DNA of 64,000 nt from Bacteroidota bacterium (GTDB lineage Bacteria; Bacteroidota; Ignavibacteria; UBA10030; CAVZMI01), in assembly GCA_050011775.1 (NCBI GenBank), contig JBEKIL010000003.1, forward strand, positions 230,853 through 294,852. Reading direction: 5' to 3'. The notes beneath the pieces are model-generated. The model saw nothing but the letters and a program-made list of their open reading frames with translations, was not told where the DNA came from and did no database searches. A program made the translations under genes and the position numbers. The number at the start of each line of letters is the position of its first letter. Positions within the stretch are counted from its first letter, which is position 1. Shown piece by piece: positions 39,694-45,086 of this stretch.

Positions 39694-40488
39694 ATGACTA
39701 AACTATTCGTATGTTTCCGTGAGTTATGGAATAGGCGCGAATTATTATTTTCGCTTACAAAGCGGGATATTAAATCGCGATATCAACAGACTTTTTTTGG
39801 AATGGGCTGGTCTTTGTTTCAGCCGGTAATGCAGGCTGTAGTCTATACAGTTGCCTTCTCGTTGATACTTAAAGTGCCGATCCGCGAAGGAATACCGTAC
39901 ATGAATTTTGTGTTCTGTAATCTCACACTCTGGACCTATTTTGCATCAACAACCCTCAGCGCAATGAACAGCATACGTATGAATTCCGCTTTGATAACAC
40001 GGGTAGCGTTCCCGCGTGAAATCATTCCTTTTTCGACCATTCTGTCAGGACTATTCGATTTCATAATTATGTTTATCGTCCTGGTTATTCTAAACGCTTT
40101 TGTCGGCTTTTATCCAAATATCCGATTTCTGTATTTGCCCACGATTATCTTAATTGAAATTCTTTTCATTCTGAATATTTCATTAGTATTAAGTGTGATT
40201 TCGATTGTACGTCGTGATATTACCCATGTCGTGAATTATTTTATTATGCTTTATATGTTTATATCGCCGGTCTTTTTTCCGTTCTCGGCACTACCGGCTG
40301 AAATACAGCGATATTATTTTCTTAATCCGATGGGGACTCTTCTTGAAGGATTTAAGAATATTATATTTCTTGACAAAGAACCCCGCTGGTTTGCATTGAT
40401 GATGGTGATCATAATACTGATCGTTCTTTTTTTCCCCTGTTATATTTTTTTCAAAAAAGCTGAACGTTCCTTCACGGATGTACTATGA
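39694..40488 (+). CDS. wzm: ABC-2 type polysaccharide export permease (Wzm family), pair 2
   Basis: 'KRDIKSRYQQTFFGMGWSLFQPVMQAVVYTVAFSLIL', 6 TM. ATG 39694 avoids overlap with the upstream gene. Confidence 0.8.
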   Translation: MTKLFVCFRELWNRRELLFSLTKRDIKSRYQQTFFGMGWSLFQPVMQAVVYTVAFSLILKVPIREGIPYMNFVFCNLTLWTYFASTTLSAMNSIRMNSALITRVAFPREIIPFSTILSGLFDFIIMFIVLVILNAFVGFYPNIRFLYLPTIILIEILFILNISLVLSVISIVRRDITHVVNYFIMLYMFISPVFFPFSALPAEIQRYYFLNPMGTLLEGFKNIIFLDKEPRWFALMMVIIILIVLFFPCYIFFKKAERSFTDVL

Positions 40489-41885
40489 TTGCACTCCGTT
40501 TCAATAATGTCACGAAAATTTATGACCTGCAGGCGGGTCGGGACACTTTTCTCACGACTCTCAGGTTCACTCTGGGCAATGTTAAGCGGAATGATTTCTT
40601 CCATGCCGTTCGTGATATAAATATTGAAATAAAAAAAGGCGAAGCAGTCGGTATCATCGGACGTAATGGAGCGGGGAAAAGTACACTGCTGAAACTTGCG
40701 GTCGGGATTACCTATCCGACATATGGATCGGTTGAAGTGAACGGTTCGATTGCCGCACTCATAGGACTTGGGGCAGGATTCAATCCCGATTTCACAGGTC
40801 GGGAAAATATTTTCCTTAATGCTTCGCTATTGGGCGTTCCAAGGAAGAGAGTGGAGGAACGTTTTTCCGAGATTGTCGCCTTTGCAGAATTAGAAGATTT
40901 TATCGATGTTCCGGTTAAGCGTTACTCTTCGGGGATGTACGCGCGGCTCGGATTTGCCATCGCGACTCACGTCGATGCCGATATCATTGTCATCGATGAA
41001 GTACTGGCTGTAGGAGACATATATTTTCAACAAAAATGCTTTTTATTTTTAGAATCGCTTCTTCAAAAAGGGAAAACTCTTCTATTTGTGAGTCATGATG
41101 TAGGCAGTGTGCGTGAACTTTGCAATTCTGTAATATTGCTTGAGAAGGGCGTGAATATATTTCATGGAGATCCAAGAGAAGGTGTAAATAGATACCTGCT
41201 ATTACAACAGAAAAAGGATACTGCAAAGGATTCCGAGAATGAAATTCGCGTGGAATCGAAGACTAGTACTGCATCAAATGCGGATATTACGGTTGATAAT
41301 AAATCGCAGGAAGGGAAGAGGAAATTCCTGCCGCGCCAATGGTCCGACATCGATGCACTGGATCTTTCTTCCTCTGCTGTTCTTATTGGTGAGAGAGATG
41401 TTCATTGGAAGGGCGTCGCGATCTATGATAAGGACGGAAGTCGCTGCAATTCTTTTTCCATGGGGGATGAAGCGTGGTTCTATTATGAGTTTGAGGTTCT
41501 GCGCGATATACTTACTCCGTTTGCCGGCGTTGCGATTTATGATAGGAAAGGAATTCTTGTTCACGGAAAGACGACATATCAGCATGGAATACAGCCGTGC
41601 CGTACAGTTGGAAAAAACGCGACGATCCGGGTTATTCAATCGATAAAGTTTCCATTGTCACCCGATACGTATACTTTTGAGCTATGGCTCAGCATGATGG
41701 AGCCGGAGACTCATGAACAGCTTCAACATCTTACAGCAGAACAAATTCAGGCAGGTGTTACCAAACTGATGCATATAAGCAGAGCAGGTTCGATCATTAT
41801 TACCCCTAATCCGAACAATATTGCTATCAATAATTTTGGTATAGTCGACTTGCCGGGGAGTGGAGATCTGACAATACTCCCCTGA
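40485..41885 (+). CDS. wzt: polysaccharide ABC exporter ATP-binding protein with C-terminal Wzt_C-like carbohydrate-binding domain, pair 2
   Basis: Walker A 'GIIGRNGAGKSTLLKL', signature 'YSSGMYARLGFAIAT', 'IIVIDEVLAVGD'. Extra ~200-aa C-terminal beta-rich domain ('HWKGVAIYDKDG...VAIYDRKGILVHG'). Confidence 0.85.
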   Translation: MIALRFNNVTKIYDLQAGRDTFLTTLRFTLGNVKRNDFFHAVRDINIEIKKGEAVGIIGRNGAGKSTLLKLAVGITYPTYGSVEVNGSIAALIGLGAGFNPDFTGRENIFLNASLLGVPRKRVEERFSEIVAFAELEDFIDVPVKRYSSGMYARLGFAIATHVDADIIVIDEVLAVGDIYFQQKCFLFLESLLQKGKTLLFVSHDVGSVRELCNSVILLEKGVNIFHGDPREGVNRYLLLQQKKDTAKDSENEIRVESKTSTASNADITVDNKSQEGKRKFLPRQWSDIDALDLSSSAVLIGERDVHWKGVAIYDKDGSRCNSFSMGDEAWFYYEFEVLRDILTPFAGVAIYDRKGILVHGKTTYQHGIQPCRTVGKNATIRVIQSIKFPLSPDTYTFELWLSMMEPETHEQLQHLTAEQIQAGVTKLMHISRAGSIIITPNPNNIAINNFGIVDLPGSGDLTILP

Positions 41886-44900: not shown

Positions 44901-45086
44901 TACAGCATGGATTATGAGCTCTGGGTAAGAATGGCGATCGCTGAAGCATCCATTGTTCATATTCCCGAGACGCTTGCGTATTTTCGAATGCATCAACAGC
45001 AAAAAACAAGCGGTAAGGATTTACCGTTTCTTCCGGAGTTACGAAAGTTGAATAAAAGGCTTCTTAAAGAATTGAGAAAAAAATAA
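41934..45086 (+). CDS. multidomain protein: N-terminal sulfotransferase, central tandem coiled-coil repeats, C-terminal GT2 glycosyltransferase (candidate chain-length regulator and terminator)
   Basis: N-terminal '[18 protein letters not shown]' (5'-PSB) and '[35 protein letters not shown]'. Residues ~335-520 are heptad-like 20-aa repeats ('[28 protein letters not shown]' x3; '[19 protein letters not shown]' x3). C-terminal '[46 protein letters not shown]', 'LNSDDRY' (GT2). Confidence 0.7.
   Translation: [1050 protein letters not shown]
42936..43494 (+). repeat. in-frame ~60-nt tandem DNA repeats encoding the coiled-coil segment of the 41934 protein
   Basis: For example 'GACTCTCGTAATGCAATTAAGCAAAAAGAAGTACGAATTCGACAACTTCTGGAGGAATCA' versus 'GACTCTCGTGATGCAATTGGGCAAAAAGAAATACGAATTCAACAACTTATGGCGGGAACG'. 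Confidence 0.7.

What the first reader, a model, noticed from the sequence alone, without database searches (positions are those of the whole stretch)
39694..45086. Wzm/Wzt exporter with a carbohydrate-binding Wzt, followed by a 1050-aa sulfotransferase, coiled-coil and GT2 fusion: a candidate sulfate-capping chain-length ruler
In ABC-transporter-dependent O-antigen systems with an extended, CBD-bearing Wzt, chain length is set by a terminator protein that caps the non-reducing end (methyl/phosphate by WbdD in E. coli O9a, beta-Kdo by WbbB in Klebsiella O12). In those systems a coiled coil acts as a physical ruler between polymerase and terminator, and the capped end is recognised by the Wzt C-terminal domain. 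The same three-gene logic is present here. Wzt-2 (40485-41885) carries a ~200-aa C-terminal beta-rich extension that Wzt-1 lacks. The next gene encodes a single polypeptide with a PAPS-type sulfotransferase domain ('PRSGST' 5'-PSB, 'RNPLDVFAS'), ~190 aa of tandem 20-residue coiled-coil repeats, and a GT2 domain. No described terminator uses a sulfotransferase, so sulfate would be the export-licensing cap. This would also explain why the locus carries its own PAPS synthesis genes.
Basis: partly seen in the sequence, partly recalled or inferred. Interest (0 to 1): 0.85.

Follow-up and report, generated by a model that had tools for sequence, protein, structure and literature searches.

The report
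Sulfotransferase-type O-antigen chain terminator candidate
Next to a polysaccharide export pump that carries a sugar-recognition domain, this Ignavibacteriota-like genome encodes one protein joining a sulfotransferase, a long coiled coil and a glycosyltransferase; it looks like a new, sulfate-adding version of the "stop-and-measure" enzymes that set bacterial surface-sugar chain length, and the same arrangement recurs in many phyla.

Summary
Genes 39643-46327 encode Wzm, a 466-aa Wzt with a Pfam Wzt_C carbohydrate-binding domain, a 1050-aa protein and a GT4. The 1050-aa protein has a PAPS-type sulfotransferase (aa 1-295), about 290 aa of long helices, an unassigned middle region and a GT2 (aa 800-1050). 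One detail was wrong: the repeats are 3 x 28 aa (84-bp DNA period), not 20 aa.

The interpretation passed every test available here.
- Across 68 assessable loci with this sulfotransferase (ST) subfamily, ST proteins with a C-terminal extension lie directly downstream of a same-strand wzt in 27 of 38 cases. Short ST-only proteins do so in 2 of 30 (Fisher p = 6e-8).
- 33 of 37 neighbouring Wzt carry Wzt_C.
- Two architectures recur: ST plus helical tail (WbdD-like) and ST-coiled coil-GT2 with MT or GT4 (like WbbB and Klebsiella O7 ORF6).
- The coiled coil always separates the ST from the GT modules.
- One Opitutaceae isolate has wzm-wzt(CBD)-ST+tail-GT4GT4-GT2 and no other candidate terminator.

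No sulfotransferase terminator appears in the searched literature. Biochemistry is untested, and methyltransferases in the operon are a rival source of the cap. I rate it a new variant of a known kind, interest about 0.72.

The parts
39643..40488 (+). wzm-2: ABC-2 type permease of the glycan exporter
   Evidence: Pfam ABC2_membrane, E 1.3e-15. NCBIfam similarity to galactan/KpsM permeases, below cutoff. Overlaps wzt-2 by 4 nt.
40485..41885 (+). wzt-2: ATPase (NBD, about aa 1-250) with a C-terminal carbohydrate-binding domain (Wzt_C, aa 302-412 = nt 41388-41720)
   Evidence: Pfam ABC_tran E 4e-18 and Wzt_C E 2.7e-14, above the gathering cutoff. Weak pairwise similarity to the Aquifex Wzt CBD structures 6o14/8dky, E about 0.4. 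Wzt-1 (24221-24943) lacks this domain.
41934..42818 (+). Sulfotransferase domain (aa 1-295) of the 1050-aa protein; proposed chain terminator
   Evidence: Sulfotransfer_3 E 6e-28. PDB hits OLS ST 4gox (E 5e-24) and CurM ST 4gbm (E 6e-20), aligned through the PSB loop, PPE, DK(T/S)P and R..P..S motifs. NCBIfam NoeE, E 1.9e-39, below the equivalog cutoff. pLDDT about 90. Invariant residues R17, E38, K104, R129, S137.
42822..43703 (+). Long helical / coiled-coil region (aa 297-590); proposed spacer (ruler)
   Evidence: AF2 helices 297-411, 419-428, 435-530, 536-550, 553-559 and 561-590. It is the only protein of 45 in the window with coiled-coil-like composition, 226 residues. Only weak generic coiled-coil Pfam hits. 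Linker length varies from 74 to 533 aa among homologs.
42986..43250 (+). 84-bp tandem repeat x about 3, equal to three 28-aa (four-heptad) units inside the coiled coil
   Evidence: Tandem Repeats Finder: period 84, 2.8-3.0 copies, 81-84% matches, score 313-330. Peptide units at aa 352, 380 and 408.
43623..43688 (+). Hydrophobic segment (aa 564-585, [16 protein letters not shown]) flanked by basic clusters; candidate monotopic membrane anchor
   Evidence: Kyte-Doolittle mean 1.5-1.8 over 17-19 aa, the only such segment in the protein. Helical in AF2. The membrane role is inferred. Conserved only in the 95%-identical relative.
43731..44303 (+). Middle region (aa 600-790), alpha/beta, function unknown
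   Evidence: Low pLDDT. No Pfam or PDB hit at E <= 10. Shared only with P0001 and P0002.
44331..45086 (+). GT2 (GT-A) glycosyltransferase domain (aa 800-1050); proposed polymerase module
   Evidence: Glycos_transf_2 E 6.8e-27. pLDDT about 90. Foldseek best matches are WrtF fucosyltransferase 9om*, Leptospira GT 6p61 and K4CP. Invariant D843, D848 and D894-D895 (DXD).
45086..46327 (+). GT4 glycosyltransferase; proposed second polymerase module
   Evidence: Glycos_transf_1 E 3e-20. Its start overlaps the stop of the 1050-aa gene. It is 35-36% identical over about 400 aa (E 1e-80 to 1e-85) to the GT4 module fused to the C-terminus of the ST-GT2-GT4 homologs P0004/P0005. The same fusion sits downstream of a Wzt-CBD in L040.
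38937..39665 (+). Stand-alone 242-aa sulfotransferase just upstream of wzm-2; possible in-chain sulfation
   Evidence: Sulfotransfer_1 E 6.6e-8. Conserved in the 95%-identity relative L001.
46344..48178 (+). Two SAM-methyltransferase genes (46344-47207 and 47207-48178); rival or additional source of a terminal cap
   Evidence: Methyltransf_24 E 1.6e-9 and Methyltransf_11 E 4.4e-15. Same tightly packed operon.
2956..6067 (+). cysD and cysN/cysC (PAPS synthesis); supply the sulfate donor for all four ST domains of the window
   Evidence: NCBIfam CysD E 1.8e-103, above cutoff. CysN/APS-kinase fusion E 2e-138. Pfam results.

Best explanation
Genes 39643-46327 form a polymerase-terminator module of an ABC-transporter-dependent glycan (O-antigen-type) pathway, and the terminator is a sulfotransferase.

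Proposed mechanism:
1. The GT2 domain of the 1050-aa protein and the translationally coupled GT4 polymerise the chain on a lipid carrier at the cytoplasmic face of the membrane.
2. The N-terminal PAPS-dependent sulfotransferase is held away from these GT modules by about 230-290 aa of coiled coil.
3. Once the growing non-reducing end reaches the sulfotransferase, it is sulfated and can no longer be extended.
4. The Wzt_C domain of Wzt-2 recognises the capped end and licenses export through Wzm/Wzt.
5. The coiled coil, including three 28-aa tandem units, would set the modal chain length.

What is shown: the domain identities, intact catalytic motifs, the helical spacer, the gene order, and the conserved and specific linkage of this ST subfamily to wzm-wzt(Wzt_C).

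What is inferred: the acceptor is the terminal sugar, sulfate blocks elongation, the CBD reads sulfate, and the coiled coil acts as a ruler.
For: 1. All three sequence-level markers of terminated systems listed in PMC11231755 are present:
   - a CBM on Wzt;
   - a non-GT enzyme at the far end of the coiled coil from the GT modules.

2. Synteny. In an unbiased scan of 185,579 species genomes with the ST motif, ST ORFs with at least 100 aa of C-terminal extension lie within 100 bp downstream of a same-strand wzt in 27 of 38 assessable loci. ST-only ORFs do so in 2 of 30 (odds ratio 34, p 6e-8). Within 2.5 kb the counts are 32 of 38 against 2 of 30 (p 8.5e-11). Of the 37 neighbouring Wzt, 35 have 150-246 aa beyond the NBD and 33 hit Pfam Wzt_C. 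The lineages are Ignavibacteriota, Planctomycetota, Verrucomicrobiota, Alpha- and Gammaproteobacteria, Myxococcota, Chloroflexota and Kiritimatiellae.

3. Independent metagenome and genome contexts agree: Ca. Nitrosacidococcus, Rhizobium sp. AAP43 (where cysD-cysNC lie immediately upstream), a Planctomycetota MAG, and L008, L090 and L091.

4. Opitutaceae bacterium D2-102 has wzm-wzt(Wzt_C 7.5e-24)-ST+tail(535 aa)-GT4GT4(821 aa)-GT2. The cluster has no methyltransferase, kinase or Kdo transferase. This is the E. coli O9a wzm-wzt-wbdD-wbdA order with an ST in WbdD's place.

5. The ST-to-GT2 linker ranges from 74 to 533 aa while both catalytic domains stay conserved. Coiled-coil-like sequence lies between ST and GT2, not after GT2, in all 16 homologs checked. 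AF2 of an ST+tail homolog gives helices of 89 and 190 aa.

6. Rosetta-stone fusion: the separate GT4 of the window is a fused module in the ST-GT2-GT4 homologs.

7. The ST is catalytically plausible and of a sugar-acting lineage. Its PAPS motifs are invariant. Its best NCBIfam relative is NoeE, which sulfates C3 of 2-O-methylfucose on Nod factors (PMC5080398).
Against: - There is no biochemical or structural-chemistry evidence for a terminal sulfate in any of these organisms.
- The operon also carries two methyltransferases (46344-48178), and O-methyl is the commonest known cap. Many homologs carry a fused MT (ST-CC-GT2-MT), and L090/L091 have an FkbM methyltransferase between wzt and the ST. 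Methyl, or methyl plus sulfate, could therefore be the recognised cap.
- There are counter-examples to strict CBD linkage. L089 has a 249-aa Wzt without a CBD 1.4 kb upstream of an ST+tail protein. L048 and L052 have an adjacent Wzt without a CBD.
- The CBDs of ST-linked Wzt share no conserved basic patch that would indicate sulfate binding.
- The AF2 confidence of the helical region is only 45-75, and the oligomeric state is unknown.
- The synteny counts are not phylogenetically independent.
- The window holds three other sulfotransferases, so the product may be sulfated internally. A terminal sulfate would then be less distinctive.
Confidence: 0.6

Rival explanations
1. The sulfotransferase is an in-chain modifying enzyme. 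It sulfates every, or many, repeat units as they are made. The helical region is only an oligomerisation or scaffold element that tethers it to the GT2/GT4 polymerase. The cap read by the Wzt_C domain is an O-methyl group added by the neighbouring methyltransferases (46344-48178), or by the fused MT in homologs.
For: - Two MT genes lie in the same operon.
- A fused MT domain is present in most ST-CC-GT2 homologs.
- L090 and L091 have an FkbM MT between wzt and the ST.
- L054 has an MT-containing protein in the cluster.
- Methyl caps are well established (PMC11231755).
- The window has several other STs and at least 10 MTs, which suggests heavy decoration.
Against: - In fused homologs the MT sits on the GT2 side. 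The ST, not the MT, is the module separated from the GTs by the coiled coil, and that is the position of the terminator in every characterised system.
- The Opitutaceae D2-102 cluster has a CBD-bearing Wzt and an ST+tail but no MT.
- ST proteins without the helical extension are almost never next to wzt (2 of 30). A simple decorating enzyme would not be expected to show that pattern.
- The MT tails of homologs have no specific ortholog among the window's MTs.
Confidence: 0.25
2. Dual cap. The terminal sugar is both O-methylated and O-sulfated, as in the 2-O-methyl-3-O-sulfo-fucose made with NoeE. The CBD requires the combined epitope. This parallels the two-step methyl-phosphate cap of WbdD and ORF6-O7.
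For: - ST and MT co-occur in one polypeptide in most relatives and in one operon here.
- The closest NCBIfam relative, NoeE, acts on a 2-O-methylated fucose.
- Known terminators can be bifunctional.
- 6-deoxyhexose pathway genes sit next to the module in Rhizobium sp. AAP43 and Nitrosacidococcus.
- The GT2's best structural match is a fucosyltransferase.
Against: - The MT is absent from the Opitutaceae D2-102 cluster and from the ST-GT2-GT4 fusions.
- In fusions the MT is on the polymerase side of the coiled coil.
- No sugar-nucleotide pathway for a 6-deoxyhexose was found in this window.
Confidence: 0.1
3. The association is a genomic hitch-hiking effect or a non-catalytic role. The ST domain would be an inactive PAPS/PAP- or glycan-binding module, or would act on a non-glycan substrate, and chain length would be set by transporter:polymerase stoichiometry as in Klebsiella O2a.
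For: - The closest solved structures are polyketide-pathway STs (CurM, OLS) that act on acyl-ACP rather than sugars.
- Some ST+tail loci have a Wzt without a CBD.
Against: - The PAPS-binding and catalytic-position residues are invariant across 21 divergent sequences.
- cysD/cysNC lie in or next to several of the loci.
- There are no ACP, PKS or NRPS genes near the ST.
- 33 of 37 linked Wzt have a CBM, which in characterised systems marks terminator-dependent export.
Confidence: 0.05

Closest known systems
Klebsiella pneumoniae O7 ORF6 (methyltransferase-kinase terminator, coiled coil, C-terminal GT2 modules) with its Wzm/Wzt-CBM (PMC11231755)
   Same: - Same order of modules in one polypeptide: N-terminal non-GT terminating enzyme, then a coiled coil, then a C-terminal GT2 polymerase module.
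- One further GT is supplied by a neighbouring gene.
- The partner Wzt carries a CBM.
   Different: - The terminating domain here is a PAPS sulfotransferase, with no sequence relation to the MT-kinase.
- There is one GT2 module rather than two.
- There is an extra unassigned region of about 200 aa, and a hydrophobic segment between the coiled coil and the GT2.
- No experimental data exist here.
WbbB of K. pneumoniae O12 / Raoultella terrigena (GT99 beta-Kdo terminator, coiled coil, two polymerase GTs)
   Same: - Termination, ruler and polymerase lie in a single protein, next to wzm-wzt(CBM).
- The homologs P0004/P0005 and L040 (ST-GT2-GT4) reproduce the 'terminator plus two GT modules' layout exactly.
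   Different: - WbbB caps with a sugar (Kdo from CMP-Kdo). Here the proposed cap is a sulfate ester from PAPS.
- There are no PDB-level sequence hits to WbbB.
WbdD of E. coli O9a/O8 (kinase-methyltransferase or methyltransferase, coiled coil, C-terminal membrane anchor that recruits the WbdA polymerase)
   Same: - The 'ST plus helical tail only' relatives (for example Opitutaceae D2-102, Geminicoccus, P0035) copy the WbdD plan and the wzm-wzt-terminator-polymerase gene order.
- The helical tail is 150-400 aa.
   Different: - The catalytic chemistry and fold differ.
- The window's own protein also contains a GT2.
- Membrane anchoring and polymerase recruitment are untested.
NoeE of Rhizobium (Sinorhizobium) sp. 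NGR234 (Nod-factor fucose 3-O-sulfotransferase)
   Same: - It is the best NCBIfam relative of the ST domain (E 1.9e-39).
- It is PAPS-dependent and acts on a sugar hydroxyl of a terminal decorating residue.
   Different: - The score of 135 bits is far below the equivalog cutoff of 500 bits.
- NoeE is a stand-alone 387-aa enzyme with no coiled coil or GT.
- NoeE works on lipo-chitooligosaccharides, not on polymers.
CurM / OLS 'activating' sulfotransferase domains (PDB 4gbm, 4gox)
   Same: - They are the closest solved structures (E 6e-20 and 5e-24; 28% identity in the Foldseek alignment).
- They share the PSB loop, PPE, DK(S/T)P and R..P..S motifs.
   Different: - They are embedded in polyketide synthases.
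- They sulfate a beta-hydroxyacyl-ACP to create a leaving group.
- No PKS context exists here.

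Membership tests
Polymerase-terminator (coiled-coil ruler) systems of ABC-transporter-dependent glycan assembly | Wzm/Wzt ABC-2 exporter encoded with the biosynthesis genes | tested here: met
   ABC2_membrane E 1.3e-15 and ABC_tran E 4e-18, in overlapping genes.
Polymerase-terminator (coiled-coil ruler) systems of ABC-transporter-dependent glycan assembly | Carbohydrate-binding module fused to the C-terminus of the Wzt NBD | tested here: met
   Wzt_C PF14524, E 2.7e-14, 53.8 bits against a cutoff of 30.4. Also present in 33 of 37 Wzt next to related ST proteins.
Polymerase-terminator (coiled-coil ruler) systems of ABC-transporter-dependent glycan assembly | [quoted passage not shown] | tested here: met
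   AF2 helices of 115 and 96 residues plus 536-590. 28-aa (4-heptad) tandem units. Coiled-coil-like composition unique in the window. The oligomeric coiled-coil state itself was not modelled.
Polymerase-terminator (coiled-coil ruler) systems of ABC-transporter-dependent glycan assembly | Terminating enzyme at the end of the coiled coil distal to the polymerising GT modules | tested here: met
   Order is ST, coiled coil, GT2. The same order holds in 16 of 16 homologs, with the MT or GT4 on the GT2 side. This tests position only; terminating activity is untested.
Polymerase-terminator (coiled-coil ruler) systems of ABC-transporter-dependent glycan assembly | A non-reducing terminal cap that stops elongation and is required for export | not testable with these tools
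   Needs glycan chemistry and genetics.
Polymerase-terminator (coiled-coil ruler) systems of ABC-transporter-dependent glycan assembly | Coiled-coil length determines modal chain length | not testable with these tools
   Indirect only: linker length varies from 74 to 533 aa among homologs.
WbdD / WbbB / ORF6-O7 terminator protein families (homology) | Sequence or fold homology of the terminating domain to the MT-kinase, GT99 or GT137 domains | tested here: not met
   PDB sequence search and Foldseek return only sulfotransferases and GT2 enzymes. No WbdD or WbbB chains appear among the listed hits. The system is analogous, not homologous.
PAPS-dependent sulfotransferases (Pfam Sulfotransfer_3; CurM-ST/NoeE-like) | Profile match above the curated threshold | tested here: met
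   PF13469: 99 bits against a cutoff of 27. PF00685: 29.3 bits against 22.
PAPS-dependent sulfotransferases (Pfam Sulfotransfer_3; CurM-ST/NoeE-like) | 5'-phosphosulfate-binding loop and 3'-phosphate-binding motif | tested here: met
   PRSGST (aa 16-21) and RNPLDVFAS (aa 129-137). They align to the corresponding CurM/OLS segments and are invariant in the family.
PAPS-dependent sulfotransferases (Pfam Sulfotransfer_3; CurM-ST/NoeE-like) | Catalytic base / lysine at the CurM ST Glu60 / Lys133 positions | tested here: met
   E38 (in PPEPW) and K104 (in DKTPR) align with the PPE and DKSP of 4gbm and are invariant. The residue roles in CurM ST are from my memory of McCarthy et al. 2012; the paper could not be retrieved.
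NoeE (NCBIfam NF052394 equivalog) | Score above the equivalog cutoff (500 bits) | tested here: not met
   135.5 bits. It is a relative, not an ortholog.
GT2 (GT-A fold) glycosyltransferases | Profile match and DXD / nucleotide-binding aspartates | tested here: met
   PF00535: 94.9 bits against a cutoff of 23.3. Invariant D843, D848 and D894-D895. Foldseek E 1e-15 to GT2 structures.

The most novel reading that the evidence does not exclude
Sulfate esterification of the non-reducing end would be a previously unrecognised, phylogenetically widespread chain-termination and export-licensing signal in ABC-transporter-dependent glycan assembly. It would be installed by a dedicated family of coiled-coil-bearing, NoeE/CurM-like sulfotransferases: about 200 clusters at 50% identity, across Ignavibacteriota, Planctomycetota, Verrucomicrobiota, Proteobacteria, Myxococcota and Chloroflexota. 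It would be read by a matching set of Wzt_C modules. In this window the 28-aa tandem units of the coiled coil would act as a tunable ruler.
Probability: 0.5. Interest if true: 0.8.

Novelty: new variant of a known kind. Interest (0 to 1): 0.72.

Why it matters
**New cap chemistry.** Chain terminators are the step that couples polymer length control to export in a major route for O-antigens, capsules, S-layer glycans and related polymers. Only four cap chemistries have assigned enzymes: methyl, methyl-phosphate, beta-Kdo and alpha-Kdo (PMC11231755). A sulfotransferase terminator would add a fifth, chemically distinct and anionic cap, and a new ligand class for Wzt carbohydrate-binding modules.

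**Reach into unstudied groups.** It would extend the coiled-coil ruler principle to environmental phyla where no O-antigen chemistry is known.

**Annotation rule.** It gives a simple rule: an ST with a helical tail directly after wzt(Wzt_C) is a candidate terminator.

**Testable now.** It points to culturable organisms in which the idea can be tested at once: Opitutaceae D2-102, Geminicoccus spp. and Rhizobium sp. AAP43.

**Glyco-engineering.** Terminal sulfate and a modular ruler could also be useful for making defined-length sulfated glycans.

Tried and rejected
1. **Heptad-register score.** A home-made coiled-coil score did not separate the real sequence from shuffles on its maximum (real maximum 11.7; shuffles 9.8 +/- 0.8, maximum 12.5). 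I dropped it in favour of AF2 secondary structure and a composition/Pro-free metric.

2. **Sulfate-binding signature in the CBDs.** I looked for a shared basic patch in the 35 CBDs of ST-linked Wzt. Only structural (Gly, aromatic, aliphatic) columns are conserved. The one semi-conserved basic column is Glu in the window protein. This is uninformative.

3. **MT ortholog in the window.** I tested whether the C-terminal MT domain of ST-CC-GT2-MT homologs has a specific ortholog among the window's MT genes. Only generic 25-34% matches over about 100 aa turned up. The 'split MT module' idea was rejected.

4. **Middle region aa 600-790.** No Pfam or PDB hit even at E <= 10. Local jackhmmer found it only in P0001 and P0002. 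It remains unassigned.

5. **CurM ST structure paper.** I could not retrieve it to verify residue roles.

6. **Literature.** Ten searches for any described sulfotransferase terminator or sulfate cap found none. The only near case is an unexplained 216-aa sulfotransferase-domain ORF between wzt and wbbB in Aeromonas salmonicida. Subscription-only papers were not searchable.

7. **Rfam scan of the window.** No hits.

8. **A TM-helix reading of aa 564-585.** Considered and rejected. It would place the PAPS-dependent ST and the NDP-sugar-dependent GT2 on opposite sides of the membrane.

Full report
**1. What is in the sequence**

The window is a 64-kb stretch in which all 46 ORFs of at least 180 aa lie on the + strand. 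Almost all of them encode glycan-assembly functions. Its nearest public relative is an Ignavibacteriota MAG: contig CAVZMI010000023.1, with 97% identity in the ST domain and the same gene order.

The finding's coordinates hold up.
- Wzm-2 (39643-40488) is an ABC-2 permease.
- Wzt-2 (40485-41885, 466 aa) has an NBD and a Pfam Wzt_C domain (E 2.7e-14, above the gathering score).
- The other transporter pair in the window (23396-24943) has a 240-aa Wzt with no such domain.
- The next gene starts 49 bp downstream and encodes 1050 aa.
- Its first 295 aa are a Sulfotransfer_3 domain (E 6e-28). Its last 250 aa are a GT2 domain (E 6.8e-27).
- A GT4 gene (45086-46327) overlaps its stop codon.
- Two methyltransferase genes and a 933-aa GT-C protein follow, with overlapping or nearly abutting boundaries. 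Everything from 36064 to at least 50964 therefore looks like one operon.

**2. Anatomy of the 1050-aa protein**

AlphaFold2 with a 21-sequence alignment gives high confidence for the ST domain (aa 1-295) and the GT2 domain (aa 800-1050). Between them it predicts very long helices: 297-411, 435-530 and 536-590, with pLDDT 45-75.

They are encoded by an 84-bp DNA repeat at 42986-43250. A 16-aa motif also occurs three times.

This is the only protein of the 45 in the window with coiled-coil-like composition.

After the helices comes a 16-19-residue hydrophobic stretch flanked by basic clusters (aa 564-585). I read it as a possible monotopic membrane anchor. A true transmembrane helix would put the PAPS-dependent and NDP-sugar-dependent domains on opposite sides of the membrane. 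This reading is an inference.

Residues 600-790 are alpha/beta, poorly modelled, and match nothing in Pfam or the PDB.

The ST domain aligns to the CurM and OLS sulfotransferase structures (E 6e-20 and 5e-24). The alignment runs through the PSB loop (PRSGST), a PPE motif, DK(T/S)P and the R..P..S 3'-phosphate motif. These residues are invariant in the family. NCBIfam's closest model is NoeE (E 1.9e-39, below the equivalog cutoff). NoeE is the enzyme that sulfates C3 of 2-O-methylfucose on Nod factors (PMC5080398), so the lineage includes a sugar-acting enzyme.

The GT2 domain keeps its aspartate motifs. It resembles WrtF fucosyltransferase and other GT-A enzymes.

**3. Relatives and their architecture**

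A word-indexed search found one 95%-identical protein and about 35 true relatives. An exhaustive HMMER pass of the ST domain over 1.84 billion cluster representatives found 196 with E <= 1e-30. The ST is almost always at the N-terminus, followed by an extension of variable length.

Three architectures recur:
- ST plus a helical tail of about 150-400 aa;
- ST-linker-GT2-MT, of about 1000-1160 aa;
- ST-linker-GT2-GT4.

The ST-to-GT2 linker ranges from 74 to 533 aa while the catalytic domains stay conserved. In all 16 fused homologs examined, the coiled-coil-like sequence lies between ST and GT2, not after GT2. AF2 of an ST+tail member (P0035) predicts helices of 89 and 190 residues after the ST domain.

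The GT4 module fused in P0004/P0005 is 35-36% identical over about 400 aa to the window's separate GT4 gene. This Rosetta-stone link indicates that ST-CC-GT2 and GT4 work together.

**4. The comparative test**

I scanned one genome per species (185,579 species) with the motif [FL][VI]DKTPR[YH][YH] from an ST-only alignment. This returned 80 loci from many phyla. I then annotated their six-frame ORFs with profiles seeded from the window.

| ST ORF type (68 loci with enough upstream sequence) | Within 100 bp downstream of a same-strand wzt | Within 2.5 kb |
|---|---|---|
| At least 100 aa beyond the ST domain | 27 of 38 | 32 of 38 |
| ST-only | 2 of 30 | 2 of 30 |
| Fisher test | p 6e-8 | p 8.5e-11 |

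Of the 37 neighbouring Wzt proteins, 35 extend 150-246 aa beyond the NBD, and 33 hit Pfam Wzt_C.

Independent look-ups agree:
- Ca. Nitrosacidococcus sp. I8, Rhizobium sp. AAP43 (with cysD-cysNC directly upstream) and a Planctomycetota MAG all have wzm-wzt followed by the ST fusion.
- L008, L090 and L091 show the same arrangement.

The cleanest case is the isolate Opitutaceae bacterium D2-102. Its cluster reads wzm - wzt(Wzt_C, E 7.5e-24) - ST+tail (535 aa) - a two-module GT4 protein (821 aa) - GT2. It contains no methyltransferase, kinase or Kdo transferase. That is the E. coli O9a order wzm-wzt-wbdD-wbdA with a sulfotransferase in the WbdD position.

There are exceptions:
- The ST-GT2-GT4 proteins P0004/P0005 sit next to a fused-type ABC exporter instead of Wzm/Wzt.
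- L089 has a CBD-less Wzt 1.4 kb upstream.
- L048 and L052 have adjacent CBD-less Wzt proteins.

**5. Mechanism proposed**

PMC11231755 makes three statements about characterised terminated systems:
- the ABC transporter carries a CBM that binds the terminal epitope;
[quoted passage not shown] The window meets all three at the sequence level. I therefore propose the following sequence of events:
1. GT2 and GT4 polymerise the chain near the membrane.
2. The ST, held at the other end of the coiled coil, sulfates the non-reducing end once the chain is long enough to reach it, which blocks elongation.
3. The Wzt-2 CBD recognises the capped end and triggers export.

If the two long helices form one extended coiled coil, the spacer would be roughly 30 nm. 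If they fold back on each other, it would be about half that. This estimate is an inference from helix lengths at about 0.15 nm per residue.

Shown: the domains, motifs, helices, gene order, and the conserved and specific synteny. Inferred: terminal specificity, elongation block, CBD recognition of sulfate, and the ruler function.

**6. Rivals**

The main rival is that the ST decorates the chain internally and a methyl group is the true cap. The operon has two MTs, most fused relatives carry an MT, and some loci place an MT between wzt and the ST.

Against this rival:
- the MT sits on the polymerase side of the coiled coil;
- the Opitutaceae cluster lacks any MT;
- ST proteins without a helical tail are not wzt-linked.

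A dual methyl-plus-sulfate cap, analogous to WbdD's methyl-phosphate and to NoeE's 2-O-methylfucose acceptor, is possible in the MT-containing loci. An inactive or non-glycan ST is unlikely, given the invariant catalytic motifs and the PAPS genes in several loci.

The CBD alignment gave no sulfate-binding signature either way.

**7. Comparison with the known, and novelty**

Functionally this is the polymerase-terminator-CBM strategy of WbdD, WbbB and ORF6-O7. By homology it is not a member of any of those terminator families. Sequence and fold searches return only sulfotransferases and GT2 enzymes.

Known terminators add methyl, methyl-phosphate, beta-Kdo (GT99) or alpha-Kdo (GT137). The word stem 'sulf' does not occur in the 2024 survey paper. 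Ten full-text searches found no sulfotransferase terminator or sulfate cap. The one loosely related observation is an unexplained 216-aa sulfotransferase-domain ORF between wzt and wbbB in Aeromonas salmonicida. Subscription-only literature could not be searched.

I therefore class the finding as a new variant of a known kind: the same logic with a new terminating chemistry and enzyme family. The added result is that it is not a one-off, but a family spread over many phyla.

**8. Verdict**

| Item | Assessment |
|---|---|
| Observation | Confirmed, with minor corrections |
| Confidence: ST is the chain terminator | About 0.6 |
| Confidence: in-chain decoration with a methyl cap | About 0.25 |
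| Interest | 0.72 |

Noticed in passing
window 36064-38862, 48163-50964, 53548-56274: Three paralogous 908-933-aa membrane proteins with weak PMT_2 (GT-C) matches and a shared C-terminal domain of about 160 aa. 48163 and 53548 are 57.5% identical over 914 aa. They flank the terminator module and may add side-chain sugars in the periplasm after export.
   Followed up: partly
window 23396-24943 versus 39643-41885: Two separate wzm/wzt pairs lie in one 64-kb, single-strand glycan island. The first Wzt (240 aa) has no CBD and is not followed by a coiled-coil protein. The second has a CBD and is. This is a neat internal contrast between terminator-independent and terminator-dependent export.
   Followed up: partly
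window 7001-7894, 16833-17597, 38937-39665: Three additional stand-alone sulfotransferases are present, along with cysD and cysN/cysC at 2956-6067. The products are probably heavily sulfated, and PAPS supply is not specific to the 1050-aa protein.
   Followed up: partly
window 43731-44303 (aa 600-790 of the 1050-aa protein): An alpha/beta region with no Pfam or PDB match and low AF2 confidence. It is shared only with the two closest relatives (P0001, P0002). Its function is unknown; it may be a polymerase-docking or degenerate Rossmann-like module.
   Followed up: partly
window 51984-53477: A methyltransferase-GT2 fusion (497 aa) further down the same operon. It is another bifunctional modifying/transfer enzyme of unknown role.
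   Followed up: no
window 21708-23360: A glutamine-dependent NAD synthase (CN_hydrolase plus NAD_synthase) is embedded between glycosyltransferase genes and wzm-1. This is an odd housekeeping insert in the glycan island.
   Followed up: no
L002-L004 (homologs P0005, P0004): ST-GT2-GT4 fusion proteins occur without Wzm/Wzt, next to a fused ABC_membrane+ABC_tran exporter, a GT4, a GT2 and a methyltransferase. The ST-polymerase module may therefore also be used with a different exporter type.
   Followed up: no
L089 (homolog P0018): The order is cysD - cysNC - wzm - wzt (249 aa, no CBD) - GSCFA protein - ST+tail (652 aa). The upstream genes match the window's left end (a BPD_transp_1 permease, then cysD and cysNC). 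This is an exception to the CBD linkage.
   Followed up: no
Literature: Aeromonas salmonicida A450 wb cluster (PMC4483657): A 216-aa ORF with a sulfotransferase domain sits between wzt and wbbB. The authors could not explain it, because no sulfate is reported in that O-antigen. It may be worth re-examining in the light of this finding.
   Followed up: no
window 1-64000: All 46 ORFs of at least 180 aa are on the + strand, and GC skew is positive almost throughout. No Rfam family reaches its gathering score.
   Followed up: yes
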